From positions 96,001 to 160,000 of the IMG/VR virus record IMGVR_UViG_3300009431_000002: 64,000 nt of DNA. The stretch is one strand, 5' to 3'. A model generated the notes under the pieces. That model did no database searches. It worked only from the letters and a program-made list of their open reading frames with translations, and was not told the origin of the DNA. Position numbers and translations under genes: made by a program. The stretch comes from a virus (taxonomy: Duplodnaviria; Caudoviricetes). The stretch's first letter is position 1; each line of letters starts with the position of its first letter. Below are positions 27,109 to 46,664 of this stretch, piece after piece.

Positions 27109-28017
27109 CTACTGGCGGACGCGCTTGTCGACGTCCTCGTACTGGCGCTCGAGTTCGGCCTTCGCAGCCTTCACCACGCCGAGGCGCTGCTGCAGCAGGT
27201 CGAGGTGGCGGGTCGCCTTGGCGAGCTGGCTGTCCAGGTCGACCTCCCGGCTCTGCGCCGCGGCCACCTTCTCGGCGTCGAAGTGGATCTCGAGGTCGGG
27301 GTCGTTCCGCAGCGCCGACTTCATGCCGACGATGATGTGCGGGAGCATGCTGGCCATCTTCTCGGGACCGGAGACGAACTCCACCACGGCGCCGACGTCC
27401 TCGAGCGGCACACCCTCCTGCAGGGCCTGCTGCATCACGGCGTCGAACTGCTCGGCTGCCTCCTTGTAGAAGGTCCGGACCTCCGCCTCCTCCGCGCTGA
27501 CGTGCTCGATGGCGCCGCGGAGCTGCTGCCACTGCCGGACGTCGGCGGAGGCGTCCACGTGCTCCGATGCCACCTTCTCCTGCTCGACGCCGAAGGCATC
27601 GGCGAGGACGTCGTCGGCGATGTCCTCGTGCAGTCCCTCCCGGAAGTCCTGGACCTGGACGCCGTAGGCCTGCGCGGCCGAGAGCTTCACGGCGGGGCGC
27701 GACTGCCCCTCCAGGTGCGCGAGGATCACGACGGGGTCGCCGTAGTCGAACACCACGTTCTTGACGGCGCCGGCCTCCTTCTGGAAGAGCTGGTCGTAGG
27801 CCTCCTGGTTGGCGGCCTCGGTGATCCGGTGGACGTGCTGGGGCGTCAGGTCGGGGTTGGCCTGGGCGATCTTGAGAACGGCGTCGTTCAGTGAGGTACC
27901 CTGGTTCAGGAACTCCGACGCGGCCTCCTTGCCCAGCAGCTTCAGCTTGGTCGCTTCGACCCCGGAGGTCTTGGTCTTGGTCGACGTGAGGAACGCTTCG
28001 AGAGCGGTGTCGGGCAT
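27109..28017 (-). CDS. K-x-A-rich head-module protein, 302 aa (first gene of the capsid operon)
   Basis: LKIAQ, QKEAG, VKLSA, EKVAS, YKEAA, EKMAS, EKVAA; GAGGTG RBS. Confidence 0.7.
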   Translation of the reverse strand: MPDTALEAFLTSTKTKTSGVEATKLKLLGKEAASEFLNQGTSLNDAVLKIAQANPDLTPQHVHRITEAANQEAYDQLFQKEAGAVKNVVFDYGDPVVILAHLEGQSRPAVKLSAAQAYGVQVQDFREGLHEDIADDVLADAFGVEQEKVASEHVDASADVRQWQQLRGAIEHVSAEEAEVRTFYKEAAEQFDAVMQQALQEGVPLEDVGAVVEFVSGPEKMASMLPHIIVGMKSALRNDPDLEIHFDAEKVAAAQSREVDLDSQLAKATRHLDLLQQRLGVVKAAKAELERQYEDVDKRVRQ

Positions 28018-33175: not shown

Positions 33176-33609
33176 CCCGCAGCCGCGACCAGAAGGCTTC
33201 GGCCGGGGGATGCCCCCCGGCCGGGGCCGGCCGTGTGGACCCGTTGTTAGCTCAGAGGCTCGTGTGGGTGGACGACCTCGGCGCGGCGCTGTCCGACGCC
33301 ACCGACAAGGTGGAGCACGTCTTCATCACCGTGGACCCCGTCCGCAAGATGGCGGTCAGAATCGACATGAGGCTATCGGAACCCCTGGAGCCGGGGTCCG
33401 AGAAGCATTTCGCCAACGTGATTCGCGGCTGGGCCGCGGTCAACGACGTGGACGTGCTGAAGGTGACGACACAGTGTCGTCGCGTGTTGGTGGACGCCCA
33501 CGTCAAGTACCTTGGAGGTGGAGAGTGCCGTCACAGTATATGGGATCTGCGCCCAGCCCCGCGAAGCCGCCACCGCTTCGTGCGCATCGGGGACCGCGGA
33601 AGAAAATGA
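33172..33609 (+). CDS. Hypothetical protein, about 145 aa
   Basis: GTGA coupling at 33172-33175 and ATGA coupling with the next gene. Confidence 0.55.
   Translation: MTRSRDQKASAGGCPPAGAGRVDPLLAQRLVWVDDLGAALSDATDKVEHVFITVDPVRKMAVRIDMRLSEPLEPGSEKHFANVIRGWAAVNDVDVLKVTTQCRRVLVDAHVKYLGGGECRHSIWDLRPAPRSRHRFVRIGDRGRK
33465..33481. repeat. Palindrome copy 4 (GACGACACAGTGTCGTC)
   Basis: Inside 33172-33609 (reads TTQCR there), about 0.8 kb downstream of parB. Confidence 0.85.
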
Positions 33610-34229
33610 GAGTCGCCGGCCTGGACGAGGCGGGTGCCGGAGCCCTGGCCGGTCCCGTCATCGCCGCGGCCGCGCTCTACGACGACATGACGTGCCCGTT
33701 CGAGCCGCTCATCGACGGCGAGGGGTACAAGGACAGCAAGCAGCTCACGAAGCTGGCGCGCGAGAAGCTGGTCCCCCAGCTCATCGCTGGCGCCGTGTCC
33801 ATCGGGCTCGGATGGGCGGACCCCGAAGAGGTCGACCGCATGGGCATGCGGGAGGCTCACCTGCTCTGCCTGCGGCGCGCCGTGGGGGATCTGCAGACGC
33901 CGCCGGAGATGCTCTACGTCGACGGCCGCGCCTACGAGCTCAGTGGCCTGCCCTTCCCGCAGCTCGCCGAGAACCGAGCCGATACCATCTACTGGCAGGT
34001 GGCGGCCGCATCGGTCATCGCCAAGACCTACCGCGACGGCATCATGTACGAGCAGCACGCGAAGTACGATGGCTACGGGTTCAACACCAACGTGGGGTAC
34101 GGGTCCAACCAGCACCTCGAGGCTCTGGGCAGGCTCGGCCCGACGCCCATCCACCGCAAGCTGTTCATCCGCAAGCCCATGGCCCGGGCTGGGCAGCAGG
34201 TCCCCCTGTCCCGGAGGTACACCCTGTGA
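33606..34229 (+). CDS. rnhB: Ribonuclease HII
   Basis: MRVAGLDEAGAGALAGPV, KDSKQL, YVDG, VAAASVIAKTYRD, NVGYG...H, GPTPIHR: canonical RNase HII motifs. Confidence 0.93.
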   Translation: MRVAGLDEAGAGALAGPVIAAAALYDDMTCPFEPLIDGEGYKDSKQLTKLAREKLVPQLIAGAVSIGLGWADPEEVDRMGMREAHLLCLRRAVGDLQTPPEMLYVDGRAYELSGLPFPQLAENRADTIYWQVAAASVIAKTYRDGIMYEQHAKYDGYGFNTNVGYGSNQHLEALGRLGPTPIHRKLFIRKPMARAGQQVPLSRRYTL

Positions 34230-35059
34230 GCGGCGAGGTCACCACGGCCCGCATCGCCCGGCTACTGCACGCCCGCCACGAGCCGCCGGAATGGGCGTGC
34301 TTCCAGGAGTTCACGACGATGACGGGCGGCGGGTTCCGCCGGTCTGGCGGCTACAGGACCGTGCGGTTCGTCGACTTCCTCGCCGTGAACCTCTGGCCCT
34401 CGAAGGGGATCTCCAAGTCGCCCAGGGTCGTCGCCTACGAGATCAAGGTCAGCCGCTCCGACTTCTTCCGGGAGATCCAGGACCCCAGCAAGCGGGCCCA
34501 GGCCATGGCGATGTCCAGCGAGTTCGTGTTCGCCGTCCCCAGTGGGCTGGTGAAGAAGGACGAGGTCCCCGAGGGCTGCGGGCTGCTCTACGCCACGACG
34601 GCCGGCCTGCGGCAGATGAAGGCGCCGCGGCAGAAGAAGCCGGACGACTGGGACTGGAACCTCATCTGCTCGCTGGCACGCCGCGTCGCCGACGAGCGTC
34701 CGAAGGACTCGCTGGCCGCCTGGAGGGTGGCGGGCCGCGAGCTGACCTACGAGGAGCTCGTGCAGCTGGCCATCAGCTCGTACAAGCGTGACGTCGGCGA
34801 GACCGCGGAGGCCATCGCCAACGGCGCCACCAAGAAGCTGATCGCCTCCAAGCCCTACCAGGACCTGCTCGACATCGCCGCGGCCGTGAAGGAGAAGTGT
34901 GGCTGGCGCGTGCAGACGGGCGACCAGTTCCGCCGGTGGTTCGATGAGCAGCTGCAGGGCGCGGTAGACCGCGACACGATCAGTGGAATCCGGCAAGCGC
35001 GGAGCACGCTGGATCGAGTGCTGGAGCGAGTCGCGCCAGCTCCGAAGCAAACCCGCTGA
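34226..35059 (+). CDS. MmcB-like PD-(D/E)xK nuclease/DNA repair protein
   Basis: VDFLAV...AYEIKVSRSDF...FVFAVPSGLVKKDEVPEGCGLL pattern; GTGA coupling. Confidence 0.7.
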   Translation: MSGEVTTARIARLLHARHEPPEWACFQEFTTMTGGGFRRSGGYRTVRFVDFLAVNLWPSKGISKSPRVVAYEIKVSRSDFFREIQDPSKRAQAMAMSSEFVFAVPSGLVKKDEVPEGCGLLYATTAGLRQMKAPRQKKPDDWDWNLICSLARRVADERPKDSLAAWRVAGRELTYEELVQLAISSYKRDVGETAEAIANGATKKLIASKPYQDLLDIAAAVKEKCGWRVQTGDQFRRWFDEQLQGAVDRDTISGIRQARSTLDRVLERVAPAPKQTR

Positions 35060-36230
35060 CGGCCCCCTCCTTCTCCAGCAGGGTCTTGTAGCCGCGGGGC
35101 TGCATGCCTGCGTCGAGCGCCTTCTTGAACCTGCGGACGTGCTTGCAGTCGCTGCCCTTGTGCGACCGCTTGTAGTACCAGTCCGGGCACGTGCATCCGA
35201 CTCGACCCGAGGACATGAGCTTCAGGGTGTACCGCTTGGGTCCGACATCGGACTTGACCCGGCGGACGTGCTCGGCGCCCTGCATGCCCTCCATGGCCCG
35301 CACGTGCCTTTTTAGCTTCGAGTCGGCCTCGGGGTGCAGGAGGATGGCCTGGCGGAACCCCGGGGACCGCAGGGCGCGGCCCTTGTACTTCTTCCACGCG
35401 TCCTGCGTGGGCGCGGGATCCGTGACGAGCCTGTCGGCCTGCTGCAAGTGCTTGGGCTTCGGGATGGTCGGCGGCAGCGGGCCCTGCCGGGCCTCCTTGA
35501 CCGCCGACGTCTTCTCCGCCACGAACCGCAGATTCTGCGACCCGGGCGTCGGCACCCTGTGGTACCCGACCTTCCCGGTGGCCGGACTGTAGATCGCGTG
35601 CCACTCCCCTGCGCCGCCCGGCATCCTCGCCCCGTGGATGTCCACGCTGCTGGGCCACACCTCCGGGGACACGAGCCCGCGCACCACATCCCGCGCGCGG
35701 CGAGCGTGCCGAAGGTTGCCTGGGGTGGGCCGGTCGAGATCGACGCCAGCAGCGGCCATCAGCTCCTCGAACTCTGGGCTGAACGGCTCTGGTCGGAGTT
35801 CCTGCGCAAGGTCACGCTCGATCATGGCGGGGTCTGGCGGGTCGCCGGGGTGGCTGTGGGCCGTCGGGCGCGAGGGTCCCGTGCGGTTCGCGGAGACGGG
35901 CCGCAACGCCACCGTCCCACCATCGCCGTGGACTAGATGGCGCGAACGCCCGCGCACGCCCACCTCGCCTACCTCATCCGCGCTCGCAGCCGCCAGATCC
36001 TTCATCCTGGCGGTCGGCGCGGCAGTCGATGGGTGGTCGATCTTCCCCTTCCTGAGCATCTTGGCCAGCCAGCGCCAGTCGCCCTCGCCCACCGAAACAC
36101 CGGCCGCACGTGCCGTCCGCGCGAGGTCCTCCGTGCGCGCTGACGTCTTGGCCAACTCGACGAAGTTGGCGCCCAAAATCGACCCCAGGCTATGGGCGAT
36201 TTCTGGGCGGCTGGTCAGATCTGATTTCAT
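34980..36230 (-). CDS. SWIM zinc-finger protein with N-terminal tag
   Basis: GCTCPDW...DCKHV (CxC-xn-CxH); N-terminal ANFVELAKTSA; TGATG coupling to the Snf2 gene. Confidence 0.75.
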   Translation of the reverse strand: MKSDLTSRPEIAHSLGSILGANFVELAKTSARTEDLARTARAAGVSVGEGDWRWLAKMLRKGKIDHPSTAAPTARMKDLAAASADEVGEVGVRGRSRHLVHGDGGTVALRPVSANRTGPSRPTAHSHPGDPPDPAMIERDLAQELRPEPFSPEFEELMAAAGVDLDRPTPGNLRHARRARDVVRGLVSPEVWPSSVDIHGARMPGGAGEWHAIYSPATGKVGYHRVPTPGSQNLRFVAEKTSAVKEARQGPLPPTIPKPKHLQQADRLVTDPAPTQDAWKKYKGRALRSPGFRQAILLHPEADSKLKRHVRAMEGMQGAEHVRRVKSDVGPKRYTLKLMSSGRVGCTCPDWYYKRSHKGSDCKHVRRFKKALDAGMQPRGYKTLLEKEGAVSGFASELARLAPALDPACSALAGFH

Positions 36231-39073
36231 CAATGGCTCGGGATGTAGTGCTCGGTCTTCTGGACCTTCTCCTCGGTCACGGACAGCCCACGCAGCATGG
36301 CACGGAGCTGCTCGTCACCGAGTCGCGCCCGCTTGCGCGCGTGGGTCTTGGGCGTCGTGAAGTACGGGTCGCGCAGGCCCAGCAGCATCTCTGGCGTGAG
36401 CATCAACGCAGCGAGCCCTGTGCCGGCGGCGACGGCGCCCCCGATGCCCACCGCGGCCTGGGTGACCGAGCGGGACCGGGGCAGTAGGTCTTCGGCGAGC
36501 CCGATGCCCAGTGGAGCGAAGGCAGGGGCGCCAGACAGGCCGACCAGCGGCGTGGCGATGCCCAGGACCTTGGCCGTGTTCACCAGCCTGTCCTTGTCGG
36601 TCTTCATCCCCTTGGGCGCCGGCGTTCCGCGCGCGGCCGCGCGGTAGTACTGGCGCAGGGTGTCGATGAAGTACTGCTCGCGCGCCTGCTTCTTCTCGTT
36701 GCCCACGGCCTCGACGTACGGGTCGGCCATGTCCTCGATCTTGTCGCCGAACTCGTTCCAGTACGCCTCCATGATGGGCTGGTCGGACTTGACGAGGCTG
36801 CGGCCCTCCTGGAAGGGGATGCGCTTGGCTGCGGCCCGCAGCTTCTTCTTGTCCACCTTGGCCGCGGAGATCTTCTCCATCTCGTCGTCGAAGGCGGCCT
36901 GCATCACGGCGAGCTTGAGCAGGGAGTCCTCGGCGAGCTCACCGACGGCGTAGTCGAACTCGGACTCCACGCTGGCGGCCTTGGACTTGCCCTTCAACTG
37001 GTGGCGGAACGACTCGTTGAGCACGTCCTTGCGCTTGGCGACGTCGTACATCCACTCGTCGGGCGAGGTCTCCCGCTTGAACGGGTTGTACATGATCGGC
37101 GCGCCGGCGGTGGTCAGGCGGTCGAGGAAGCCTCCAGGGGAGATGAGCTTCAGCGTGTCCTTGGCGGTCTGCGTGGCCGAGCGGGGCACGACGCTGACGT
37201 ACCGGCGGATGACGACCTTGCGCTGCTCCGGCTCCCGGTGCGCGAGCCCGCCGGCGCGGACCGCGCGGGCCTCGGCCTGCTGGATCTTCTCGGGGTTGAA
37301 GTGGCCGTCGAGCGCCGCGAACATCGTGGCGTTCTTGAGGTCCAGCCCCTCGCCGCCGGCGGCAGAGATGACGAGGACCTTGTTCTTGCCCTTGTTGAAG
37401 TCGCGCACAGACCGTTGGCGCTTCTCCTCGGTCACCCCGGGCTGGCCCTTGCCCACGAAGGTGCCGAAGGGGATGCCGCGGTCCTTCAGCCCCGCGGACA
37501 CGACGTCGACCCCACCCTTGATCAAGTTCGAGTGGATGACGACCTGGCCGTCTTCGGTCTCGGCGAGGTGGTCCTCGACGTCGTCCAGCATCACCTTGAC
37601 CTTCGGCGTCTTCTGCGCCGACTCGGTGATGTCCATGTCGTTGTCGATGGTGTGGATCGAGTTCGAGACCTGCCGGGCCTGGATGATCTTGGCGAAGATG
37701 TTGTTGAGGTCCCGGCTCTTGAGCTGGCTGGCACCGAAGCGCAGCTTGATGGCCGTGACGGGGTCGAGCTTGTCCACCACGTAGCGGTAGAGCTCCTCCT
37801 GTCGCGGGCTCATCATCACCTTGACCTCTTCGACGACCTTGTCGGGCATGCGCTCGTCGTCCATGTCCTTGGTCTCGAAGTGGTCGACGAACGGGTTGAG
37901 CAGGGCGCGCACCATCCGCGGCCGCGCGATGGTCTTCTGCCCCTTCTTGTCCTCGCGGACGAAGCGTCGCTCGAAGTGGTTCTTGGTGCCCAGGCGGTGC
38001 TTGCCGCCGGTCATGGCGTCGACCAGCGGGACCATGTCGCCCGGGGTGTTGTTCATGATCGACCCAGTCAGGCCGATGAAGTTCTTGTGGTGCGGGCGCG
38101 CGTCCTTCAACGTCTTGTAGGTCGCGCCCTCCTCGTTGCGGATCCGGTGGAGCTCGTCGTAGATGACGGTGTCCGCGCCCGAGGCCTTGATGTACTTCTC
38201 CGGGTCCTTGCGGAACATCTCGTAGCTGACGACGTGGTAGCGGGCACCGTCGTCGGGGTCCTCGGCGGCCCTGGCAACGCCCTTGGCTACCTCCTGGCTG
38301 TTGCCGAAGATCGCACCGCGGGCGTTGGTGAACTTGCGGACCCCGTTGTCCAGGAAGTTGGCGCGCAGCGACGCCGGCGTCACGACCAGCGCGCGGCTGG
38401 CGTCCCCGGAGTCTCGCATCTTCTCGAACGAGGCGATGGCGGTGATGGTCTTGCCGGACCCCGTGCCGTGGGACAGGAGCAGGGAGCCACCGCGGTTCAT
38501 CACCTTGTCGACCGCAGCCCTCTGGTGCTCGAACAGCTCGACGTTGCGCTTCAGTCCCTTGGGCTCGAACCTCTGTTCCTTCTTGCGCTTCGCCACCTTC
38601 ACCGAGCTAGCCTTGGCCATGCCCGGCGCCGCCTCTCCCATCGTCTCCGCGGACCGCCCGACGACCCGGCCCAGGTGCTCCGGCAGCTTCCGCAGCTTGC
38701 CCTTCAGCAGCTGCTCCGCCTCCACCGAGCTGGGTGAGGGTGCGAGGCCGAGGAGCTTCGACGCGAGCATGTCTCCCTTGAGGGCACCGAGTCCCGCGAC
38801 CTCCGCTGTGCCAGGCACGGGCAGGGCTGCTGCTGCACCCATCGCCGCGGGGATGGTGGCGATGTTGTCGGTAGCGGCGCCGACCAGGACTCGCTGGGTC
38901 TCAGGGTTGAGCAGGTGGAATCGAGAGGTCCCCGGAACCTCCGTCAGCAGCACGCGCTGGAGAGCGTCGGACGCGCCGCCCGCAGCCTGCTCCACCGCCT
39001 GCCCGACGCGCGGCAGCCCGACGCGGCGGAGGAGTTCGCCTGTGATCTGCCCACGTGCCGCCGCCTTCTCCAT
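36230..39073 (-). CDS. SWI2/SNF2-family ATPase, 947 aa
   Basis: HGTGSGKT, VVTPASL, VSYE, YDELHR, LTGSIMNN, AGGEGLDL, QAEARAVRAG; flanked by K-x-A motifs and AAFDDEMEKIS. Confidence 0.9.
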   Translation of the reverse strand: MEKAAARGQITGELLRRVGLPRVGQAVEQAAGGASDALQRVLLTEVPGTSRFHLLNPETQRVLVGAATDNIATIPAAMGAAAALPVPGTAEVAGLGALKGDMLASKLLGLAPSPSSVEAEQLLKGKLRKLPEHLGRVVGRSAETMGEAAPGMAKASSVKVAKRKKEQRFEPKGLKRNVELFEHQRAAVDKVMNRGGSLLLSHGTGSGKTITAIASFEKMRDSGDASRALVVTPASLRANFLDNGVRKFTNARGAIFGNSQEVAKGVARAAEDPDDGARYHVVSYEMFRKDPEKYIKASGADTVIYDELHRIRNEEGATYKTLKDARPHHKNFIGLTGSIMNNTPGDMVPLVDAMTGGKHRLGTKNHFERRFVREDKKGQKTIARPRMVRALLNPFVDHFETKDMDDERMPDKVVEEVKVMMSPRQEELYRYVVDKLDPVTAIKLRFGASQLKSRDLNNIFAKIIQARQVSNSIHTIDNDMDITESAQKTPKVKVMLDDVEDHLAETEDGQVVIHSNLIKGGVDVVSAGLKDRGIPFGTFVGKGQPGVTEEKRQRSVRDFNKGKNKVLVISAAGGEGLDLKNATMFAALDGHFNPEKIQQAEARAVRAGGLAHREPEQRKVVIRRYVSVVPRSATQTAKDTLKLISPGGFLDRLTTAGAPIMYNPFKRETSPDEWMYDVAKRKDVLNESFRHQLKGKSKAASVESEFDYAVGELAEDSLLKLAVMQAAFDDEMEKISAAKVDKKKLRAAAKRIPFQEGRSLVKSDQPIMEAYWNEFGDKIEDMADPYVEAVGNEKKQAREQYFIDTLRQYYRAAARGTPAPKGMKTDKDRLVNTAKVLGIATPLVGLSGAPAFAPLGIGLAEDLLPRSRSVTQAAVGIGGAVAAGTGLAALMLTPEMLLGLRDPYFTTPKTHARKRARLGDEQLRAMLRGLSVTEEKVQKTEHYIPSH

Positions 39074-39074
39074 G

Positions 39075-40052
39075 TCAGTGCCCTTCCTGCCGGCTCACCG
39101 ATGGGTACAGGCCGCCGGTCTTGATGAGTCCCTCGGAGATCCGCTTGCCCCGCACGTCGCGGCGACGCAGCAGTCGTCGGAAGTCGTCGAACGACATCGT
39201 CGTCATCGACCCGAAGAACTTGGGGCTGTTGTAGTGCTTGAGGTACGCCCGCTTCGCCTCCTTGGCATTGCGGAACCCCAGCATGCACTTGTCCTCGTCG
39301 TACTCCTTGAAGCCGGGCTTCTTCATCTGGTGGACGATGTACACCACGTCGGAGTGGAGGTCTGGCCCGACGTACACGTCGACGGGGTCGCCGTCGGGGG
39401 CCATGGTCCGTCGGACCTCACCGTAGTGGTGCTGCATCTTCGTGCTGCCGGACTCGCCGGTGTTCTCGTCCTTCCAGTGCCGGCTGGAGCCGCGGCGGTT
39501 CTCGATGTAGATCTTCAACCCACGGAAGTCGATGGTCCCCTGGTAGGGCCACTCCTTCCTGTTCCGCTTCGGCGGCGGGCCCACCTTGGGCTTGACCTCC
39601 TTGGGGTCAGCGCCGTTGGCCTTGGCCACCTTCTCCAGCGCCGCGATGATGGCGAGCCCACTGGCCTTGTAGAAGTTGCCCTCGTTCACACCGACCGTCT
39701 CACTGTTCCGCGCGTCCTCCAAGCCCTTCAGCCCGTCCTTCGTCAGCTCGGGGCCGCCCTTGACCTTCAGGAACTCGTGCCCGTCGCCGTCGACACTGGT
39801 CTTGTAGGCGCGGCTGGCGCCGATCTGGCTGTTGTGCTCGACCGCTCGGAGCAGCCGGACCATCTTGGCGACGGTCTCCGGGTGGCCCTCGAGCTCCAGC
39901 TTCACCGAGGCGCGCGGCTGCTCACCGACCTTCTCCGGCAGCTTCTCGTCCGGTGTGTGCCTCTCCCACTTCTTGACGGTGCCCTTGGGCACACGACCAT
40001 CCGCCTCCATGGCGTGGAAGAGTCGTCGCTGTGCCTCGCTCTGGAATGGCAT
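39075..40052 (-). CDS. Protein with N-terminal MPFxSxAQ module and C-terminal inorganic pyrophosphatase-like (InPase) domain
   Basis: GLKIYIENRRGSSR...MQHHYGEVRRT.APDGDPVDVYVGP...VYIVHQ...YDEDKCMLGF...AKRAY matches the phage/polyvalent-protein InPase pattern. Confidence 0.75.
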   Translation of the reverse strand: MPFQSEAQRRLFHAMEADGRVPKGTVKKWERHTPDEKLPEKVGEQPRASVKLELEGHPETVAKMVRLLRAVEHNSQIGASRAYKTSVDGDGHEFLKVKGGPELTKDGLKGLEDARNSETVGVNEGNFYKASGLAIIAALEKVAKANGADPKEVKPKVGPPPKRNRKEWPYQGTIDFRGLKIYIENRRGSSRHWKDENTGESGSTKMQHHYGEVRRTMAPDGDPVDVYVGPDLHSDVVYIVHQMKKPGFKEYDEDKCMLGFRNAKEAKRAYLKHYNSPKFFGSMTTMSFDDFRRLLRRRDVRGKRISEGLIKTGGLYPSVSRQEGH

Positions 40053-40055
40053 CGT

Positions 40056-40865
40056 CTACCCCAGGTTCGGGCCGAACACCTTCCGCGGCCAGCTGCCCGT
40101 GCCTGTGGTGGGCAGCGGGGCCTGCGAGAACATGTTGAACGCCTTCATGGCAGCCGGCAGCGCGACCAGTGCGCCGCCGACCCGCCCCCACTTCGGCAGC
40201 CTGCTGGCGAGCTGGGCTGCCTCGTCCGCGGTCATCAGCCCCTTCTCCACCGACTTCTGCAGGGTGCCGGCGAGCATCTTCCCGCCACCGTGGCCGAGCA
40301 TCGACGCACCGCCGACGGTGCCCGCCATCCCAGCCAGCCCCCACGTCGGTCCGGCGGGGACCACCTGCACAGGCTGCTGGTACTGCATCGGGTAGGCCGC
40401 GGTCTTCTCGCCCGTGTAGTTGCGCAGCTTCTCGGACATCTCCGCGACGTGTGCTCGCTCCTCTTCCTCAGACATGCCGTGCGTGATGTAGATGCTGCCG
40501 ATCCCGCCGTCGCCCCGCCGCACAGACAGGATCTTCTTGTAGGGGGAGTAGTGGTCGCGGGTGCCTCCGGCACCGAGGGTCCGCCGCAGCGCGTTGATCA
40601 TCCCCGGCAGCTTCTCCGTATGCACCGGCTTCTTGACGTAGACGCCACCAGGCTCGAACGCGGAGTCTGGAATGGCCTTGCCCGTCCGCTCCTCCTCAGC
40701 CATCACGGCCTCGACAGCATCGAGGTCGTCCCACAATCCCTGACTGTCGGGAACATGCGTATTGAGGAGCTTGTACCCTTCCGGGGTCAGCGACCTCGGG
40801 TCGACGCGCTTCGGGCCGAACGCGGTCTTCACCAATCCGAAGGGCACGATGGGTCGCTCGGTCAT
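40056..40865 (-). CDS. Tagged glycine-zipper protein, 269 aa
   Basis: LVKTAF and EKTAA motifs; hydrophobic C-terminal segments; no Cys seen. Confidence 0.65.
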   Translation of the reverse strand: MTERPIVPFGLVKTAFGPKRVDPRSLTPEGYKLLNTHVPDSQGLWDDLDAVEAVMAEEERTGKAIPDSAFEPGGVYVKKPVHTEKLPGMINALRRTLGAGGTRDHYSPYKKILSVRRGDGGIGSIYITHGMSEEEERAHVAEMSEKLRNYTGEKTAAYPMQYQQPVQVVPAGPTWGLAGMAGTVGGASMLGHGGGKMLAGTLQKSVEKGLMTADEAAQLASRLPKWGRVGGALVALPAAMKAFNMFSQAPLPTTGTGSWPRKVFGPNLG

Positions 40866-41284
40866 GCTGCTGCTCCTCGGAGCCTGTGCGCCAGGCGCTC
40901 ACCGAACTCGGCGGTGAGCATCTCCAGCGCCTGGCCCTTGCGCTTGCCGTAGCCGGCGAGCTTCACGCCCCAGCTGTCGACCTCAGCGGTGTAGGTCCCG
41001 ACCGCCGCCTCGCTGGACCCGAGGATCTCGTCGAAGGTGGTGCCGATGGCCTCGCGCATCGCGGACTCCGGCGGCCACGGGAACGGGTCCACGCGGTAGA
41101 TGTGGTAGAGCAGGTCGTCGCCGGCGAACACCCACTGGATCCGGATGGGGCCGAAGTCCACCATCGGTGTGCGGTCGTGGGTACCCACGGCCTCCATCTT
41201 GAAGGACCGCTGGCCCCCGGCAATCTGGCCGAGCATCTCCTGCGCCCAGTCAGGCGTCCTCGTCAATGTCTTCGGACCCGTCAT
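40862..41284 (-). CDS. Hypothetical protein, about 140 aa
   Basis: ATG at 41284 after GGAGAGG; ATGA coupling to the next gene. Confidence 0.6.
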   Translation of the reverse strand: MTGPKTLTRTPDWAQEMLGQIAGGQRSFKMEAVGTHDRTPMVDFGPIRIQWVFAGDDLLYHIYRVDPFPWPPESAMREAIGTTFDEILGSSEAAVGTYTAEVDSWGVKLAGYGKRKGQALEMLTAEFGERLAHRLRGAAA

Positions 41285-42194
41285 CGTCCTCTCCCAAGGT
41301 GTCAGCGACATCCGCGGTGTCGCTGTACGTTCCTCCCGCCTCCGGGTCGGCCAGCTGATGCAGGGACACCGGCGGCTGTTTGTCATTCTGCACGCGCATC
41401 CGCTCGAAGTCCTTGAGCAGACGGCGCAGTTCATCCTCGCTCGTGGCCACGCGCTTGTCGATGGCCAATGCCGTGTTGGCCAGCCCGGTGAGCATCGTGA
41501 TCTTGTCCCGGCTCAACGACACTGTGTCGTCGACCGTCACGAAGTTGATGTACAGGCGACGCCGCATGTCCTGCAGCATCTCCTGCCCCTCGAGGCCGGC
41601 CCGCAGGCCCATGCGGTGGAGCGTGGCCTCTCGGCCAGACCGCAGCGCGACCTCGTGGTCCTCCTGCACCATCGGCGGCAGGTCCTGGGACAGGATGGTC
41701 TCGGACCACTCCTCCAGGCTCATGGCCCGGACGTTCCAGTAGTAGTGCGCGAACGACTGGACGCCGTCTGTGGTGATCCGTAGACCCTCTGCCCGACCCA
41801 CCTCGCGTGCGATGACGTGGAAGGGCACCTGCCCCAGCAGTCCGACCTCTACTCGCCGGCGGACCCGGAAGTCCAGGAGGATCGTGTTGGCCTCCTCGAC
41901 GGCGCGCGTCGGGTGGTGCAGCGAGAAGATGCGGTGCCGTCGCAGGTACCGTGCGGTCCGGATGTTCCTGCGGTCCCGGGGCAGGAAGGGGTTCGGGATG
42001 TCCTTGAGCAGCTGGGCACGGAGGCGGCTGACGTACTGCTCCTCGGCCTCGGGCAGCCGATACATCTCCAGGTGCGTCTTCACGAACTCGTAGCTGCACT
42101 TCTCCGGATGCCCCTGCGTCAGCAGGAAGAGGATGAACCGTTCGCTCGGATGAGCACGCTGCTCCCGAGCGGGTGGGAGCAGATCCATCGTCAT
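41250..42194 (-). CDS. Hypothetical protein, 314 aa (helical; possible packaging accessory/terminase small subunit)
   Basis: ATGA coupling; globular composition without the K-x-A signature. Functional guess is weak. Confidence 0.55.
   Translation of the reverse strand: MTMDLLPPAREQRAHPSERFILFLLTQGHPEKCSYEFVKTHLEMYRLPEAEEQYVSRLRAQLLKDIPNPFLPRDRRNIRTARYLRRHRIFSLHHPTRAVEEANTILLDFRVRRRVEVGLLGQVPFHVIAREVGRAEGLRITTDGVQSFAHYYWNVRAMSLEEWSETILSQDLPPMVQEDHEVALRSGREATLHRMGLRAGLEGQEMLQDMRRRLYINFVTVDDTVSLSRDKITMLTGLANTALAIDKRVATSEDELRRLLKDFERMRVQNDKQPPVSLHQLADPEAGGTYSDTADVADTLGEDDDGSEDIDEDA
41516..41530. repeat. Palindrome copy 5 (ACGACACTGTGTCGT)
   Basis: Inside 41250-42194 (VDDTVSL). Confidence 0.85.
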
Positions 42195-44335
42195 GCGTGT
42201 GACAGCAGCTTCAGCCCGTTGACCACCGACTCCAGAGAGAAGAGCGCCGTCCGCACCGACGACTCGTTGATGATCTTCTGGCCGATGCGGACGGCCAGCA
42301 GGAGGTCCGCGAGACGGTTCACGGAGTCCTCGAGGTACGGCATGTAGCTGACGAACACCGACATCGTCTCGGGCGACAGGAAGCCCAGCGACAGCACGGC
42401 GTCCACGGTGTCGGCGTCGCCGTCGGCGAGGTCACCGGCCTCCTTGACCAGCAGCACGGCCTTGGGCAGGTCCTTGATCCTCTCGGCCGCGGTCTTGACC
42501 GCCTCCTCGCGGACCTCGGACAGCGGGACGATGGGGCGGAGCCCACCGAGCTCAGCGTGTCCGACCTCCACCGACTCCGCCAGCTTCTCCTTGGCCACCC
42601 GCGGGTGGACACCGGCGCAGACCATGAGGAACTCGGCGCCAGCCCGGTCCACGAACTGGTAGTCCTGCTGCGCCAGCTTGTGGAAGGCGCGGCCCTTGAG
42701 GCTGTACTCGGGGCCGTGGCACATCAGCGTGCCCACCTGCGCGACACCGCGGGCCTCGGACTCCTTGTTGAATCCCTCCGGCGCGTCCACCAGCTTGGTC
42801 ATCTGTCCCTCGAGGGGGCAGAAGCGGTAGTGATCGGGCACCGCGAACAGGCCGTCGCCCAGGAACTGGATCTTCTGGATGTTGGGGGCGAACGAGAACC
42901 GGACGAACTCCCCGATGTCCGTGATGGCCTGGTACGCCTGCATCCCACCCTGCTGCTGGTCCAGCTGCACTTGGAAGGGCACCGTGGCCTTGGCGTTGCC
43001 GCCCTCCACGCAGTAGAGGAAGCCGTGCCCGCGCACGGGCCCGTGCGGGAGGTTGCCGCCCTTGCCGACGCGGATGCCGGCGACGCCGGGCTGCACCGAG
43101 AACTCCGAGCCGTTGGTGAACAGGCTCATCGGCACCAGGTCCTCGCCCATGCTGGGCTGGAACTGCATCAAGCCGGGGAACACCCAACCGATGAGGTGCC
43201 GGCCGTCGCAGGTGGCGACGCGCCACTCGCCGAACTCGTCGACCAGTCGGATCTCCTCGTCCTCGGAGTCCGGTTCCATCGCCGCGGCGTCGACGATGTC
43301 GGACTCGCCCGGGGCCAGATCGCCAGCGCCCGGCGCGATACCCTCGGCCTCGGCCGCCCCCATCTCCTGCTGTTGGGGAGCGAACGCCTCGGGGTTGGCC
43401 CACTTCGCCATCACCGTGCCGCTGGCGGTCTTGGTGAGCTGGACCACCGTGGGCTTGATGCCCGTGGCAAACTGGCTCCACATGTCGGCCGCGGCCACCT
43501 TGTCCAGCGTGCTGGCACCGGCGATGTACCCCAGCATCTCGGCCGCGGTCTCCGACGACCGGAAGGCGCGGCGCAGGGCGGGGTCGTCGGCGATGGCGGC
43601 GGCGACCTTCTCGACCGTGGCGGCGTCCATCGACGGCGCGAGCGCACGCAGCAAAGGCACGCCAGCCTTCTTCTCGTGCAGCTTCTTCTTGGCCTCGAGG
43701 GTGGAGTCCCAGGACTCGCCGGACGCCTCCTCCAGCTTCTTGAGCTGGTCCTCGTCGAACTTCTTGGCCAGGAAGCTGTCGACCACACCGGCGGCCTTCT
43801 CGACCCCCAGCATCTCGGCGAGCGCCTCCTCATGGGCGGAGCCGGTCACCGTCATGCCGCCGAAGTACCCGCCGTACTGGCCGCCGCCGAAGGGCGGGGC
43901 GAGGTCGCTGGCCATGTACTTCTGCGCCGGCGGCGTGCCGGGGCCGTCGAAGGTCTCGGCGCGGAACATGTGCTGACGGAAGCGAGCCTCCGTCAGCGGC
44001 CACGTCTTCTCCCCCTGCATGAACAGGTCGAACGGCGCCAGCTGGAACTTGTGGATCACGATGGGGATGCGGGAGTGCTTGACCGACTTCCCCAGCAGCT
44101 CCTCCCCCGGCGACCTGTCGGTCTTGTTCTTGACCTCGACGTAGCCGATGGCCGTGCCCTGCTCGGGCACCGAACGGGGGATGTTGACGGAGACGTCGTA
44201 CTCCGCCAGGAACGGAAGCTGGCGGTACGCCTCCTGCAGGAGCTGCGTCGGCCAGTGGTCGGCGTTGCTGACCATGCGGGCCGAGGAGACCATCGCGGTC
44301 TTGGTCTTGGGGGATTCGTCGAGGAAGAGGTCCAT
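42191..44335 (-). CDS. K-x-A-rich head-module protein, 714 aa
   Basis: TKTAM, EKAAG, KKAGV, EKVAA, DKVAA, TKTAS, HKLAQ, VKTAA, VKEAG. Confidence 0.7.
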   Translation of the reverse strand: MDLFLDESPKTKTAMVSSARMVSNADHWPTQLLQEAYRQLPFLAEYDVSVNIPRSVPEQGTAIGYVEVKNKTDRSPGEELLGKSVKHSRIPIVIHKFQLAPFDLFMQGEKTWPLTEARFRQHMFRAETFDGPGTPPAQKYMASDLAPPFGGGQYGGYFGGMTVTGSAHEEALAEMLGVEKAAGVVDSFLAKKFDEDQLKKLEEASGESWDSTLEAKKKLHEKKAGVPLLRALAPSMDAATVEKVAAAIADDPALRRAFRSSETAAEMLGYIAGASTLDKVAAADMWSQFATGIKPTVVQLTKTASGTVMAKWANPEAFAPQQQEMGAAEAEGIAPGAGDLAPGESDIVDAAAMEPDSEDEEIRLVDEFGEWRVATCDGRHLIGWVFPGLMQFQPSMGEDLVPMSLFTNGSEFSVQPGVAGIRVGKGGNLPHGPVRGHGFLYCVEGGNAKATVPFQVQLDQQQGGMQAYQAITDIGEFVRFSFAPNIQKIQFLGDGLFAVPDHYRFCPLEGQMTKLVDAPEGFNKESEARGVAQVGTLMCHGPEYSLKGRAFHKLAQQDYQFVDRAGAEFLMVCAGVHPRVAKEKLAESVEVGHAELGGLRPIVPLSEVREEAVKTAAERIKDLPKAVLLVKEAGDLADGDADTVDAVLSLGFLSPETMSVFVSYMPYLEDSVNRLADLLLAVRIGQKIINESSVRTALFSLESVVNGLKLLSHA

Positions 44336-44339
44336 TGGT

Positions 44340-45431
44340 TCACCTCAAGTACGTGTTCTGGGCCAGGATGGAGCTGGCCGGAGTCGTCGGGGCCGCGGCT
44401 GTCGTACCCGCCACGGAGTGCGTGTGCGACTGGAGCCAGGAGACGAGCGTGTCTCCCAACACACCCTTCTGCGCGCCCTGCTGACCGCCGACCGTTACCT
44501 TCCCGCTGGGCTCCACCACGACGGAGCCTCCGCCCATCGTGATGTTGCCGGTGGCCGTGATCTCCACGTCGCCACCGCTGTCTATCTTCACACTGGTTCC
44601 ACCCTTGAGCATAGCTTCTTGAGTGGCTTCGACCTTCGCGTTCTCCTGTGCCACGAGCTCGATGTTCTTCTTGGCCGCCACCAAGAAGCTGTCCTCGACC
44701 GCCCAGGAGACCTCGCCGTTGTGCTTCACCGTCAGCTCGGCGTTGAGCGTCGCCTCCTCGGCGCCATCCACGTTCACGCCGAGCCGTAGGGCCACGTCTT
44801 CGTCGTCAGGGTCGTGGCCGAGCAGCAGGGAGCACACGTAGCCTGGGTCCGTGGCCTTCTCCTTGGCCCGCAGCAGCAGCGTCGTGGTCTTGTCTCCGTC
44901 CGCGTTCTTCTCCGGCCGGTCGACCAACCAGGTCAGCTCGCCGCCGAACGTCCGCAACTCGTACTGTGAGCACACGTCGCGGATCATCCGATGGATCGGC
45001 AGGTACAGGCGCTGGGCCAGGGGGCCGGCCATCACCTGCACCACGCCACCGCGTCGGATGGTGATGCCGTTGCCGTCCCTCGTGCTCATGTGGATGTCGC
45101 CGGGGTTGAGGTCCTTGCGGGTGGCGCGCCACCCCTCCTCCCCCGGCGGCGGCGCGTACCCCAGGATGAACGGGTGCTCCCCGTCGCTCGGCCAACAGAC
45201 CCAGCACATCGCCCCGACCTCCGGCATGATGTACACGCCTTCGCCGAAGTAGTGGTGCATGTACGGCGACATGAACGGCACGTCCCCGTAGTAGCGCATC
45301 GAGTGCTGGGTCACGAAGTCCACGGAGTACAACGGCGGGTTCACGTTGATGACCTGGGCGGACTCCACGTACGCCTCGGTGAGCTCACCGAGAGCAATCG
45401 GTCGCGGTTCCTGGTGGGTCGCCCGAGTCAC
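44340..45431 (-). CDS. Baseplate central spike (gpV/gp138-like)
   Basis: N-terminal OB-fold-like AQVINVN...MPEVGAMCWV; beta-repeat body; C-terminal LVSWLQSHTH with the HxH metal-binding tip motif. Confidence 0.8.
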   Translation of the reverse strand: MTRATHQEPRPIALGELTEAYVESAQVINVNPPLYSVDFVTQHSMRYYGDVPFMSPYMHHYFGEGVYIMPEVGAMCWVCWPSDGEHPFILGYAPPPGEEGWRATRKDLNPGDIHMSTRDGNGITIRRGGVVQVMAGPLAQRLYLPIHRMIRDVCSQYELRTFGGELTWLVDRPEKNADGDKTTTLLLRAKEKATDPGYVCSLLLGHDPDDEDVALRLGVNVDGAEEATLNAELTVKHNGEVSWAVEDSFLVAAKKNIELVAQENAKVEATQEAMLKGGTSVKIDSGGDVEITATGNITMGGGSVVVEPSGKVTVGGQQGAQKGVLGDTLVSWLQSHTHSVAGTTAAAPTTPASSILAQNTYLR

Positions 45432-45438
45432 GTCCTAC

Positions 45439-45861
45439 TCAACGACGGAGCAGCGTCGCGCCCCCGAGGCCCAACGTGCCGAGACCAGCCATGCCTCCGG
45501 CGCCGGCCAGCGCACCGCCGCCGACGTCACGGGCGAGGTCGCCGCCCTCCTGGACCTGCTTGCCCCAGCCCTCGAGGCCCTCGCCCCAGCCGCGGCGTGT
45601 CTTGCCGGCGTCCAGGGCCTCCGTGCTCATCTTGCCCTTGGGCTGGGCCTTCACGGCGCGGGCCATGGCGTCGTCGCCCGACTGGGTGAGCTTGCCGCCC
45701 AGCCACTTGGCGCCGCGGCCGATGAGCTTGCCGGCCTGCTCGATGAGCGCGAGCTTCTCGAGGTCGCTCAGGCCACGGGCGTCTGCCACCTTCTCGAGCT
45801 CGTCGAGGAACCCGCCGACGAAGGCGTGCTCGCATGCGGCCGCGTGCTTCTCCATATCCAT
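45439..45861 (-). CDS. Tagged small membrane-anchored protein, 140 aa
   Basis: MEKHAA...GGFLDELEKVA...LEKLA; C-terminal GGGALAGAGGMAGLGTLGLGGATLL. Confidence 0.7.
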   Translation of the reverse strand: MDMEKHAAACEHAFVGGFLDELEKVADARGLSDLEKLALIEQAGKLIGRGAKWLGGKLTQSGDDAMARAVKAQPKGKMSTEALDAGKTRRGWGEGLEGWGKQVQEGGDLARDVGGGALAGAGGMAGLGTLGLGGATLLRR

Positions 45862-45870
45862 GCGGTCCTC

Positions 45871-46656
45871 CTATCCAAAGTGGCGCGGCGTTGGCGCGTC
45901 GAGCCACAGATATTTGCTTTCGTGCGCTGACAGCCGAGGCTTGAGCCACCGCATGGCTTCCTGAGGCCCGCGGCTCTGCAACTGCTCCCGGTACGCGTCC
46001 TGTATCTGACTGTACTCTAAATCTCGTCGGTCGACCGACCGCTCCAGCAACGCCCGAAACCGACGTCGCATAGCCTTCGGCATCTTCTGCCCAGGACGGC
46101 CAACGAACCCACCTGCGCGGGCGTCCCCGAACGCCTCGGACGCCTGCCTGGACAGACGCCTGTACTCCGGTTCGCGCAGCCTACGCCACAATCCAGCCGT
46201 CTCCCAGCCACCGCCCGGGCCCTCTAAGGTGTTAATGAGATTGGACTCCTGGACCAGCACATCTGGCTCTGCGTGACCAGAGACCAGTTCCGTGAGCTTC
46301 TCGCCGTAACGGCCAGCTTTCCGCTCCGCAGCCTCGTGTATGGTGGCGATCCCACGAAGGTTGGTTTGTGCCTCCCTGGAGGCGTGTGGGGCAATACCGC
46401 GACCCGCGGATGGCGCCACGTAGACGGCACCTGCAGCCCGAGCCAGGGCCGGGGACTGATCCTTTATGGCCTCCGGCAAACGCTTCGGTATGTGGAACGC
46501 GCCAGCGCGCATCGGTGTGGTGCCGAGCTCCTCCCAGGCTTTCGCTGGTAGCCTACGCAGTGGGGCGATGCGCTCGGTAGCCACGCGAAGATCTGCAGCT
46601 GACACCGCGATCTTCACAAGCTCGTCGCAAAACGCCGCCAGTCGCCTCCGCTCCAT
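45871..46656 (-). CDS. Tagged hypothetical protein with HExxE motif, 261 aa
   Basis: LAAFCDELVKIA at the N-terminus; TIHEAAE...SGH...QE; A/T-richer codons than flanks. Confidence 0.6.
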   Translation of the reverse strand: MERRRLAAFCDELVKIAVSAADLRVATERIAPLRRLPAKAWEELGTTPMRAGAFHIPKRLPEAIKDQSPALARAAGAVYVAPSAGRGIAPHASREAQTNLRGIATIHEAAERKAGRYGEKLTELVSGHAEPDVLVQESNLINTLEGPGGGWETAGLWRRLREPEYRRLSRQASEAFGDARAGGFVGRPGQKMPKAMRRRFRALLERSVDRRDLEYSQIQDAYREQLQSRGPQEAMRWLKPRLSAHESKYLWLDAPTPRHFG

Positions 46657-46664
46657 GCGATCTC

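What the first reader, a model, noticed from the sequence alone, without database searches (positions are those of the whole stretch)
34980..39073. Translationally coupled SWIM and Snf2 genes inside the virion module, both tagged; the Snf2 has no cysteine
Seen: 947 aa with no Cys found; the ATPase core is flanked by MAKASSVKVA and SKAAS...LLKLAV...AAFDDEMEKIS, plus a hydrophobic C-terminal segment. Established: bacterial SWIM fingers are often fused or adjacent to SWI2/SNF2 ATPases, and RapA is an RNAP-recycling Snf2 protein. Inference: a packaged, proteolytically released DNA translocase that helps the injected RNAP open promoters, recycle, or pull DNA into the cell.
Basis: partly seen in the sequence, partly recalled or inferred. 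Interest (0 to 1): 0.75.

Follow-up and report, generated by a model that had tools for sequence, protein, structure and literature searches.

The report
Cysteine-free Snf2 motor as phage cargo
A 202-kb uncultured phage makes a cysteine-free Snf2 DNA motor as a tagged three-part precursor; its homologue in the cultured phage Arash is an abundant particle protein, so it is probably carried in the particle and delivered with the phage's own RNA polymerase.

Summary
ORF 36230-39073(-) encodes a 947-aa Snf2 ATPase with no cysteine. Its stop overlaps the start of a 416/417-aa protein ending in a SWIM finger (TTGATG). The quoted motifs and two hydrophobic C-terminal segments are present.

The Snf2 is a core gene of a large clade of roughly 150-210-kb phages that encode a single-chain bacterial-type RNA polymerase. 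It usually sits in the order RNAP, spike, conserved gene, Snf2, large terminase. Cysteine avoidance is family-wide: 53 of 63 non-redundant cores have none, and in intein-bearing relatives all cysteines lie in the inteins.

In the cultured relative Arash, the homologue Gp217 gave 38 peptides and 1148 spectra in virions, on a par with RNAP Gp216 (published data).

The 947-aa chain reads as a precursor: N-module, AKASS, ATPase core, SKAAS, acidic linker with the clade's F-x-D-E-L-x-K-I tag, then a membrane-like module. Relatives carry the tag directly before the core, or on the next gene.

Snf2-SWIM adjacency is not conserved. SWIM is a separately tagged cargo module, absent from 8 of 14 complete relatives.

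Packaging is well supported. Cleavage and help for the RNAP remain inference. The enzyme is not a RapA family member. The scan's earlier notes on this genome already described the tag and the cysteine-free RNAP.

The parts
36230..39073 (-). Snf2 precursor gene, 947 aa, no cysteine
   Evidence: Pfam SNF2-rel_dom E 9e-20 and Helicase_C E 1e-12. It is the only Snf2 in the genome.
38618..39073 (-). N-terminal extension, residues 1-152. It starts MEKAAA and is Gly/Ala-rich and mildly hydrophobic over residues 62-98.
   Evidence: The first 45 residues are 44% identical to the N-terminus of P0162, where this piece is fused to a SWIM module. None of the fetched loci has this extension on its Snf2.
38603..38617 (-). 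AKASS boundary motif, residues 153-157, before the core
   Evidence: Relatives with any N-terminal extension carry E-K-[TSIV]-x or a full tag 8-25 residues before the conserved G-L-K...H-Q core start.
36986..38602 (-). Snf2 ATPase core, residues 158-696, with intact motifs: GSGKT at 205, DELH at 306, GGEGLDL at 573, QAEARAVRAGG at 599
   Evidence: The best solved relative is SsoRad54 (1z63), E 1.5e-15.
36971..36985 (-). SKAAS boundary motif, residues 697-701, directly after the last core helix
   Evidence: K-[TSAH]-[SAG]-[SA] is present in relatives that continue past the core and absent from those that end there.
36863..36970 (-). Acidic linker plus internal tag. The tag F-D-D-E-M-E-K-I-S covers residues 728-736, nt 36866-36892.
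   Evidence: Close relatives have the same tag at the same place. In more distant relatives the next gene starts with it.
36233..36862 (-). C-terminal module, residues 738-947, with two membrane-like segments: 833-861 (nt 36491-36577) and 869-895 (nt 36389-36469)
   Evidence: It is conserved in the closer relatives (loci L005-L013, L017, L062). No family or fold match was found.
36228..36233 (-). TTGATG overlap of the Snf2 stop with the start of the next gene
   Evidence: The public gene call uses the ATG (416 aa).
34980..36233 (-). SWIM-module protein gene, 416/417 aa. The first ~240 residues are orphan sequence.
   Evidence: GC3 is 0.80 in the first half and 0.93-0.98 in the second.
36138..36164 (-). 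Degenerate N-terminal tag FVELAKTSA, residues 24-32
   Evidence: It matches the wider clade's x-E-L-E-K-T-A-A form.
35502..35516 (-). EKTSA motif just before the conserved SWIM module
35046..35498 (-). Conserved SWIM module: four helices followed by the zinc finger C346, C348, C362, H364 (nt 35139-35195)
35025..35051 (-). Degenerate C-terminal tag FASELARLA
   Evidence: Sixteen homologues carry a tag after the SWIM finger.
39075..40052 (-). Upstream gene with the polyvalent-protein type pyrophosphatase domain (InPase). Its stop lies one base before the Snf2 ATG.
   Evidence: PF18823 E 1e-35. In relatives the domain sits elsewhere, inside larger proteins.

Best explanation
The 947-aa product is the precursor of a head-packaged cargo enzyme. 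At its centre is a dsDNA-translocating Snf2 ATPase of about 540 residues, of the SsoRad54-like type. An N-terminal module and a C-terminal membrane-like module flank it. Each junction carries the clade's short Lys-containing motif (AKASS, SKAAS, EMEKIS), and the third junction also holds the full F-x-D-E-L-x-K-I tag. The tag most likely directs loading into the prohead, and the junction motifs most likely mark cuts by the head protease. The freed, cysteine-free core then stays in the particle next to the cysteine-free single-chain RNA polymerase. It enters the cell with the DNA and works on the incoming genome. Its most probable role is to clear or remodel DNA for the phage polymerase, or to recycle that polymerase, without being a RapA homologue. 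The SWIM protein is a second tagged cargo precursor that this lineage has moved behind the Snf2. Shown: the gene anatomy, conserved synteny, conserved cysteine avoidance, tags on relatives, and the homologue's abundance in Arash virions. Inferred: loading by the tag, cleavage, ejection, and the link to transcription.
For: Arash Gp217 is 27% identical (E 9e-32; profile E 1e-79). Its gene start overlaps the stop of beta' gene gp216. In virion mass spectrometry it gave 38 peptides and 1148 spectra, against 40/1210 for Gp216 and 30/1333 for the capsid protein (PMC10585845). The order RNAP, spike, g42191 homologue, Snf2, terminase recurs in about 45 of 79 IMG/VR loci, and the Snf2 follows the RNAP directly in L067, L070 and Arash. 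All 20 Snf2-bearing records hold the RNAP. Most of the 87 homologues have no Cys, while two unrelated Snf2 proteins have 10 and 13. Of 63 non-redundant cores, 53 are Cys-free, with 10 Cys in 33,473 residues. In intein-bearing relatives the Cys lie in the inserts. Relatives P0004, P0008 and P0014 carry the tag directly before the core. Core-only relatives are followed by a gene that starts with the tag. The post-core K-[TS]-[SA]-[SA] motif tracks the presence of an extension. Of the 13 genome-wide hits of [EAS]K[TAI][AS][AS], 4 are in the Snf2 and 2 in the SWIM protein. In Arash, 9 of 11 related motif hits fall in gp218-gp225, which are virion proteins. The catalytic motifs are intact. For phiKZ-like phages, a Snf2 whose phyletic pattern follows the phage RNAP has been proposed in print as a RapA equivalent (PMC7824862).
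Against: There are no proteomic, cleavage or expression data for this phage. Arash Gp217 has no tag and no extensions, so the tag is not needed for packaging in that relative. The Arash virion list has 116 proteins and includes clear non-structural enzymes, though those have few peptides. The K-motif was defined after looking at these sequences, so its enrichment statistic is inflated. The RNAP itself carries no tag. In several relatives the Snf2 lies about 40 kb from the RNAP. RapA matches only the N-lobe (E 3e-6). Co-occurrence with the RNAP could simply reflect shared ancestry.
Confidence: 0.55

Rival explanations
1. The Snf2 is packaged cargo, but its job is counter-defence rather than transcription. 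Like the helicase part of P1 DarB and other polyvalent proteins, it would travel along the entering DNA and displace or block host restriction or other DNA-sensing defences.
For: The best PHROG hit is phrog_62, a 1881-position profile of large multidomain helicase proteins (E 1.5e-61). The neighbouring gene has the InPase domain typical of packaged polyvalent proteins. Relatives fuse the Snf2 to DNA ligase, LigD-type and 2H phosphoesterase modules. PMC5512222 describes SNF2 modules as standard parts of packaged conflict proteins.
Against: There is no methyltransferase domain in or beside the Snf2, and that domain is the defining partner in DarB-type dyads. The Snf2 is a single-copy core gene with stable synteny, unlike the usually variable anti-defence genes. 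In Arash its amount matches that of the RNAP.
Confidence: 0.2
2. The Snf2 is not delivered. It would act inside the infected cell late in infection, in recombination, replication restart or DNA packaging with the adjacent terminase. The Arash virion signal would then be carry-over.
For: In most relatives the Snf2 lies 0.5-3 kb upstream of the large terminase gene. Snf2 helicases of many temperate phages sit in replication modules. PMC7824862 suggests that jumbo-phage Snf2 helicases could replace UvsW. The Arash virion list also contains reductases, ligases and a primase.
Against: Those contaminant-like enzymes gave 2-6 peptides, against 38 for Gp217. This reading does not explain the family-wide Cys avoidance shared with the RNAP, nor the head-cargo tags on relatives' cores.
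Confidence: 0.12
3. The uncut or partly cut protein is a membrane-anchored import motor. The two C-terminal hydrophobic helices would insert into the host inner membrane at the entry site, and the Snf2 core would reel in the 202-kb genome.
For: Two strongly hydrophobic segments lie in a conserved C-terminal module. Snf2 enzymes translocate on duplex DNA without unwinding it (PMC5512222). Neighbouring operon proteins are also Gly/Ala-rich.
Against: Most family members, Arash included, lack this module. A conserved boundary motif and a tag sit between the core and the module, which suggests separation rather than tethering.
Confidence: 0.1

Closest known systems
Salmonella phage Arash Gp217 ('DNA helicase'), PMC10585845
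   Same: Homologous Snf2 core that is also cysteine-free (0 of 472). It is encoded in the structural region beside the phage's bacterial-type RNAP and was detected abundantly in virions.
   Different: Arash Gp217 is the bare core: no N- or C-terminal modules, no tag, no SWIM gene in the genome. Identity is only 27%. The paper merely lists it and proposes no role.
Snf2-type helicase of phiKZ-like jumbo phages linked to their multisubunit RNAPs (Iyer et al. 2021, PMC7824862)
   Same: A phage Snf2 whose distribution and gene neighbourhood follow a phage-encoded multisubunit RNAP. A RapA-like role has been proposed.
   Different: It is a different phage clade and a different Snf2 branch (described there as Rad25-related), with split, highly diverged RNAP subunits. 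No cysteine avoidance, tags or precursor architecture were described.
E. coli RapA/HepA
   Same: A Snf2 ATPase that acts with a bacterial-type RNAP.
   Different: The match covers only the first ATPase lobe (E 3e-6). NCBIfam RapA scores 38 bits against a cut-off of 576. The RapA N-terminal RNAP-binding domains are absent.
SsoRad54 and the SWIM-associated prokaryotic SWI2/SNF2 clade
   Same: It is the closest solved structure (1z63, E 1.5e-15). The SWIM partnership named in PMC5512222 recurs here as an overlapping gene pair.
   Different: In this phage clade the two genes are usually far apart, or the SWIM gene is missing. The SWIM finger here sits on a clade-specific four-helix module.
Phage P1 DarB and other packaged polyvalent proteins (Iyer et al. 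2017, PMC5512222)
   Same: A helicase-type ATPase carried in the head and delivered with the DNA. Modules are strung into long chains, and there are InPase and ligase-type partners.
   Different: There is no methyltransferase. The modules are separated by a clade-specific tag and Lys motif rather than by embedded peptidase domains. The Snf2 is a syntenic core gene.
T4 capsid-targeting sequence cargo (IPI-III, Alt) and SPN3US/phiKZ ejection proteins trimmed by the prohead protease
   Same: A short shared leader on unrelated head-cluster proteins, and enzymes including RNAP subunits stored in the head for ejection.
   Different: The leader sequence differs. Here it also occurs inside chains and after domains. 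No cleavage has been measured.

Membership tests
SWI2/SNF2 ATPases (Pfam SNF2-rel_dom + Helicase_C) | Both RecA-like lobes score above the Pfam thresholds | tested here: met
   PF00176 scores 71.3 bits (cut-off 24.9) and PF00271 scores 48.4 bits (cut-off 23.5).
SWI2/SNF2 ATPases | Intact Walker A, DExH and motif VI arginines | tested here: met
   GSGKT at 205, DELH at 306, QAEARAVRAGG at 599. These positions are invariant in the 43-sequence alignment.
RapA/HepA | Full-length match to the RapA equivalog, including the N-terminal RNAP-binding domains | tested here: not met
   NF003426 scores 38.4 bits against a cut-off of 576 and covers residues 164-319 only. PDB RapA chains match only residues 168-325.
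RapA/HepA | Binds RNAP and stimulates its recycling | not testable with these tools
   The RNAP (2048 aa) plus the Snf2 exceeds the size limit of the complex tool. No biochemistry is available.
SWIM zinc finger (PF04434) | C-x-C-x(n)-C-x-H signature | tested here: met
   C346, C348, C362 and H364 are invariant in 77 aligned homologues and present in all 149 listed homologues.
SWIM zinc finger (PF04434) | Pfam gathering score | tested here: not met
   11.1 bits against a cut-off of 19.6, E 0.31.
SWIM zinc finger (PF04434) | SWIM fold | tested here: met
   Model residues 79-135 superpose on many SWIM-type domains at rmsd 1.6-3.0 A, about 30% identity, probability 1.0.
SWIM-associated Snf2 pair (SsoRad54 type) | Conserved linkage of the SWIM and Snf2 genes | tested here: not met
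   A SWIM gene lies within 10 kb of the Snf2 only in this window and in L065/L066 among 79 loci. Only 6 of 14 complete relatives have a SWIM gene, and in the near-complete relatives that have one it lies far from the Snf2.
DarB-type methylase-helicase dyad / polyvalent proteins | Adenine methyltransferase fused or adjacent to the Snf2 | tested here: not met
   No methyltransferase domain was found in the Snf2 or in the neighbours that were scanned.
Polyvalent proteins | Several unrelated effector domains in one chain of a phage, in a packaging context | tested here: inconclusive
   This copy has one enzymatic domain plus two modules of unknown function. Relatives add ligase, LigD-type and 2H phosphoesterase domains. 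The InPase domain is on the adjacent gene.
Head cargo with a capsid-targeting leader | Shares the leader found on other head-cluster proteins of the same phage | tested here: met
   The strict motif has 9 hits in the genome, all on the coding strand. Eight are N-terminal and one is at Snf2 residue 728. It is N-terminal on the Snf2 core in P0004, P0008 and P0014.
Head cargo with a capsid-targeting leader | The leader is removed by the prohead protease and the protein is present in the mature head | not testable with these tools
   The only evidence is indirect: the untagged Arash homologue is in virions.

The most novel reading that the evidence does not exclude
The Snf2 is an ejected 'chromatin remodeller' for a virus. 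It would be kept cysteine-free so that it survives storage in an extracellular particle and unfolded passage through the tail and periplasm. Together with the zinc-free RNAP, the pyrophosphatase and the SWIM module, it would form a self-contained, pre-loaded transcription-start kit. In this kit the motor strips host nucleoid or defence proteins from the entering DNA, or, tethered by its C-terminal helices, pulls the genome in.
Probability: 0.15. Interest if true: 0.8.

Novelty: new variant of a known kind. Interest (0 to 1): 0.55.

Why it matters
Phages that bring their own RNA polymerase must start transcription on naked, incoming DNA in a hostile cell. How multisubunit-type virion polymerases do this is poorly understood. 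A conserved, abundant, co-packaged DNA motor would be a candidate missing helper.

Three sequence features give signatures for listing the delivered proteome of a large, almost wholly uncultured phage clade. They are cysteine avoidance, the shared tag, and the Lys boundary motifs. Arash offers a cultured system in which these ideas can be tested directly.

Tried and rejected
- Complex prediction of the Snf2 core with the SWIM module returned no verdict (score 0.00). It counts neither for nor against binding.
- A single-sequence fold of the whole SWIM protein was too poor to use (pLDDT 47).
- PDB fold and profile searches with the SWIM module found nothing.
- Atlas searches with the Snf2 C-terminal module and with the orphan N-terminal half of the SWIM protein gave no usable hit.
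- A nucleotide search of cultured phages found no match.
- The word-based protein search found no homologue of the full SWIM protein. Only the exhaustive HMMER search did, and only for residues ~245-395.
- An internal translation start at Met724 before the tag was considered. There is no convincing ribosome-binding site upstream, and close relatives keep the same in-frame fusion, so I read it as one chain.
- RapA membership was rejected.
- A DarB-type dyad was rejected because there is no methyltransferase.
- The promoter and terminator scan of 34000-47000 gave nothing above chance. This fits one long operon but is weak evidence, because the phage has its own polymerase.
- Only about 130 of Arash's 181 kb were scanned for the motif.
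Full report
**Observation**

ORF 36230..39073 on the minus strand encodes 947 residues with no cysteine. The predicted proteome of this 201,921-bp IMG/VR phage has 1.17% Cys, so zero in 947 has a chance of about 1.4e-5. The quoted strings lie at residues 152, 697, 718 and 726. Two hydrophobic segments lie at 833-861 and 869-895.

The stop TGA overlaps the TTG/ATG start of the next ORF, 34980..36233 (sequence CATTGATG). The gene upstream ends one base before the Snf2 ATG. The downstream protein carries C-x-C-x13-C-x-H.

The window also holds a major head protein, a large terminase, a spike-like protein and a 2048-aa single-chain beta-beta' RNAP that also lacks Cys. The genes therefore do lie in the structural region.

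**What the Snf2 is**

- Pfam finds both Snf2 lobes, and all catalytic motifs are intact.
- The closest solved structure is SsoRad54 (E 1.5e-15). RapA matches only the first lobe (E 3e-6). NCBIfam's RapA model scores 38 bits against a cut-off of 576. The enzyme is a generic SsoRad54-like Snf2, not a RapA.
- It is the only Snf2 in the genome.

**Relatives**

A protein search found 87 strong homologues of 527-1653 aa. A profile scan of IMG/VR returned 79 loci.

- In about 45 loci the order is RNAP, spike-like gene, homologue of g42191, a few genes, Snf2, zero to three small genes, large terminase. In L067, L070 and the cultured Salmonella phage Arash the Snf2 follows the RNAP directly.
- All 20 Snf2-bearing records examined have the RNAP, including 14 of 14 that are at least 90% complete.
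- In several of them the two genes are about 40 kb apart.

**Virion evidence from a cultured relative**

Arash Gp217 is the homologue: 27% identity, E 9e-32, profile E 1e-79. Its start codon overlaps the stop of the beta' gene gp216.

The Arash paper's virion mass spectrometry lists Gp217 with 38 unique peptides and 1148 spectra. Gp216 has 40 and 1210, and the major capsid protein 30 and 1333. Evident contaminants such as DNA primase and DNA ligase have 2 peptides each (PMC10585845). This is the strongest support for packaging, and it is independent of sequence motifs.

**Cysteine avoidance is a family trait**

- Most of the 87 homologues have no Cys, while two unrelated Snf2 proteins from the same search have 10 and 13.
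- Among 63 non-redundant cores from IMG/VR loci, 53 are Cys-free. There are 10 Cys in 33,473 residues, about 0.03%.
- Relatives with many Cys are those with inteins. Their Cys lie in inserts that interrupt Walker A or DExH, and these are spliced out.
- Arash Gp217 has 0 Cys in 472 residues.
- The SWIM family shows the same economy: 119 of 150 members have exactly the three zinc-binding Cys.

I infer selection against oxidisable thiols in enzymes that are stored outside cells and probably pass unfolded through the tail and periplasm. I did not find this rule stated in the papers I searched.

**Precursor anatomy**

The genome's strict tag F-x-[DE]-[ED]-[LMIV]-x-K-[ILVM] occurs 9 times, always on the coding strand. 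Eight copies are N-terminal. The ninth is at Snf2 residue 728.

- Close relatives keep the same in-frame tag between the core and a conserved C-terminal module.
- More distant relatives end after the core, and the next gene often begins with the tag.
- Others (P0004, P0008, P0014) place the tag directly in front of the core.

Directly after the last core helix, every relative that continues has K-[TSAH]-[SAG]-[SA]. Those that stop there lack it. Before the core, extensions end in E-K-[TSIV]-x or a tag.

In this genome [EAS]K[TAI][AS][AS] occurs 13 times, against 2.4 in shuffles. Four hits are in the Snf2 (residues 2, 153, 697, 733) and two in the SWIM protein (28, 240). I defined this pattern after seeing the sites, so the statistic is only indicative.

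In Arash, 9 of 11 hits of the related motif fall in gp218-gp225, right after the Snf2, and the annotated proteins bearing them were detected in virions.

The simplest reading is a precursor of N-module, core and C-module that the head protease cuts at these junctions. The cutting itself is not shown.

**The SWIM protein**

Only residues ~245-395 have homologues: 238 cluster representatives, mostly proteins of 120-200 aa.

- All 149 listed homologues have the finger.
- 65 of 150 carry a loosely defined tag in the first 40 residues, against about 3% of comparable internal segments. Sixteen carry it after the finger, as this copy does.
- The AlphaFold model (pLDDT 86) shows four helices plus a SWIM fold.
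- The first 240 residues are orphan sequence but look coding.

The adjacency to the Snf2 is not conserved. It is seen only here and, at 1.5 kb, in L065/L066. Six of 14 complete relatives have a SWIM gene, and in the near-complete relatives that have one it lies far from the Snf2. Arash has none. The overlap is therefore a recent local arrangement, and the SWIM module is not an obligate partner of this Snf2.

**Mechanism and comparison with what is known**

Packaging is likely, about 0.8 in my estimate. What the motor does after entry is open.

- **Transcription helper.** Synteny and matched abundance with the RNAP favour this. For phiKZ-like phages an RNAP-linked Snf2 has already been proposed as a RapA equivalent (PMC7824862).
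- **Counter-defence.** The neighbouring InPase domain, the ligase and phosphoesterase fusions in relatives, and the phrog_62 match recall packaged polyvalent proteins and P1 DarB (PMC5512222). There is no methyltransferase, however.
- **Import motor.** A membrane-tethered motor is possible for the copies that have the C-terminal module, but most family members lack it.

I rank the readings as follows: transcription helper within packaged cargo 0.55, counter-defence cargo 0.2, non-delivered late function 0.12, import motor 0.1.

**Novelty**

A helicase in the Arash virion and RNAP-linked Snf2 genes in another phage group are already in print. In the papers I searched I did not find any of the following:
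- the size and synteny of this family;
- its conserved cysteine avoidance;
- the tagged precursor architecture;
- the SWIM module as tagged cargo.

Earlier notes of this scan on the same genome already described the tag and the cysteine-free RNAP. I reused the tag consensus from those notes. I tested the tag independently only as far as it concerns these two genes.

Noticed in passing
window 39075-40052 (-); also P0017, P0095, L006:3103, L041:11674: A second recurrent N-terminal leader, M-P-F-x-S-E-A-Q-R-R-x-F, heads the InPase protein here. In relatives it heads a Snf2 (P0017), a 1463-aa SWIM-bearing chain (P0095) and small genes downstream of the Snf2. It may be another sorting or docking peptide.
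   Followed up: no
relatives P0022, P0034, P0036, P0041, P0083, P0086: Inteins or other large inserts of 330-480 aa interrupt the Snf2 exactly at Walker A (query residues ~208-210) or at DExH (~300-308). They hold essentially all the cysteines of those proteins.
   Followed up: partly
relatives P0009, P0010, P0042, P0057, P0080, P0081; P0091-P0095: The Snf2 and SWIM modules are fused in relatives to other modules. These include ATP-dependent DNA ligase, LigD-type and 2H phosphoesterase domains (from the precomputed Pfam hits), and, read by eye from the sequences only, an HELGH zincin-like motif and a GNAT-like stretch. The modules are separated by the same E-K-T-A type motifs, like interchangeable cargo parts.
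   Followed up: partly
window 42191-44335 (-): The conserved 714-aa protein between the spike and the Snf2 has three V/L-[ED]-K-[AV]-A-[AG] motifs at residues 179, 242 and 278. These resemble the ELEKAAAV repeats of Arash gp223 and gp225.
   Followed up: partly
window 33600-34229 (+) and 34232-35059 (+): An RNase HII gene (PF01351, E 5e-34) and a 275-aa gene of unknown family run convergently into the 3' end of the SWIM gene, overlapping it by 80 nt. An RNase HII gene sits at the same place and orientation in the closest relative's contig.
   Followed up: partly
L008:14024-16861, L051/L052/L069:14627-17287: In several relatives the large terminase match is split into two pieces about 1.1 kb apart. 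This suggests an intein or intron in the terminase gene.
   Followed up: no
window 40862-41434 (-) and 41250-42194 (-): These two listed ORFs overlap by 185 nt. The 190-aa ORF starts with a Cys-rich stretch (6 Cys) that is unlike its neighbours, so its true start is probably further downstream.
   Followed up: no
whole genome (window offsets): Fifteen of 107 predicted proteins of at least 200 aa are cysteine-free. Eight of them lie in this window's structural region: 7115-7966, 15323-17041, 22067-23767, 26425-27099, 27109-28017, the Snf2, 40056-40865 and the RNAP.
   Followed up: partly
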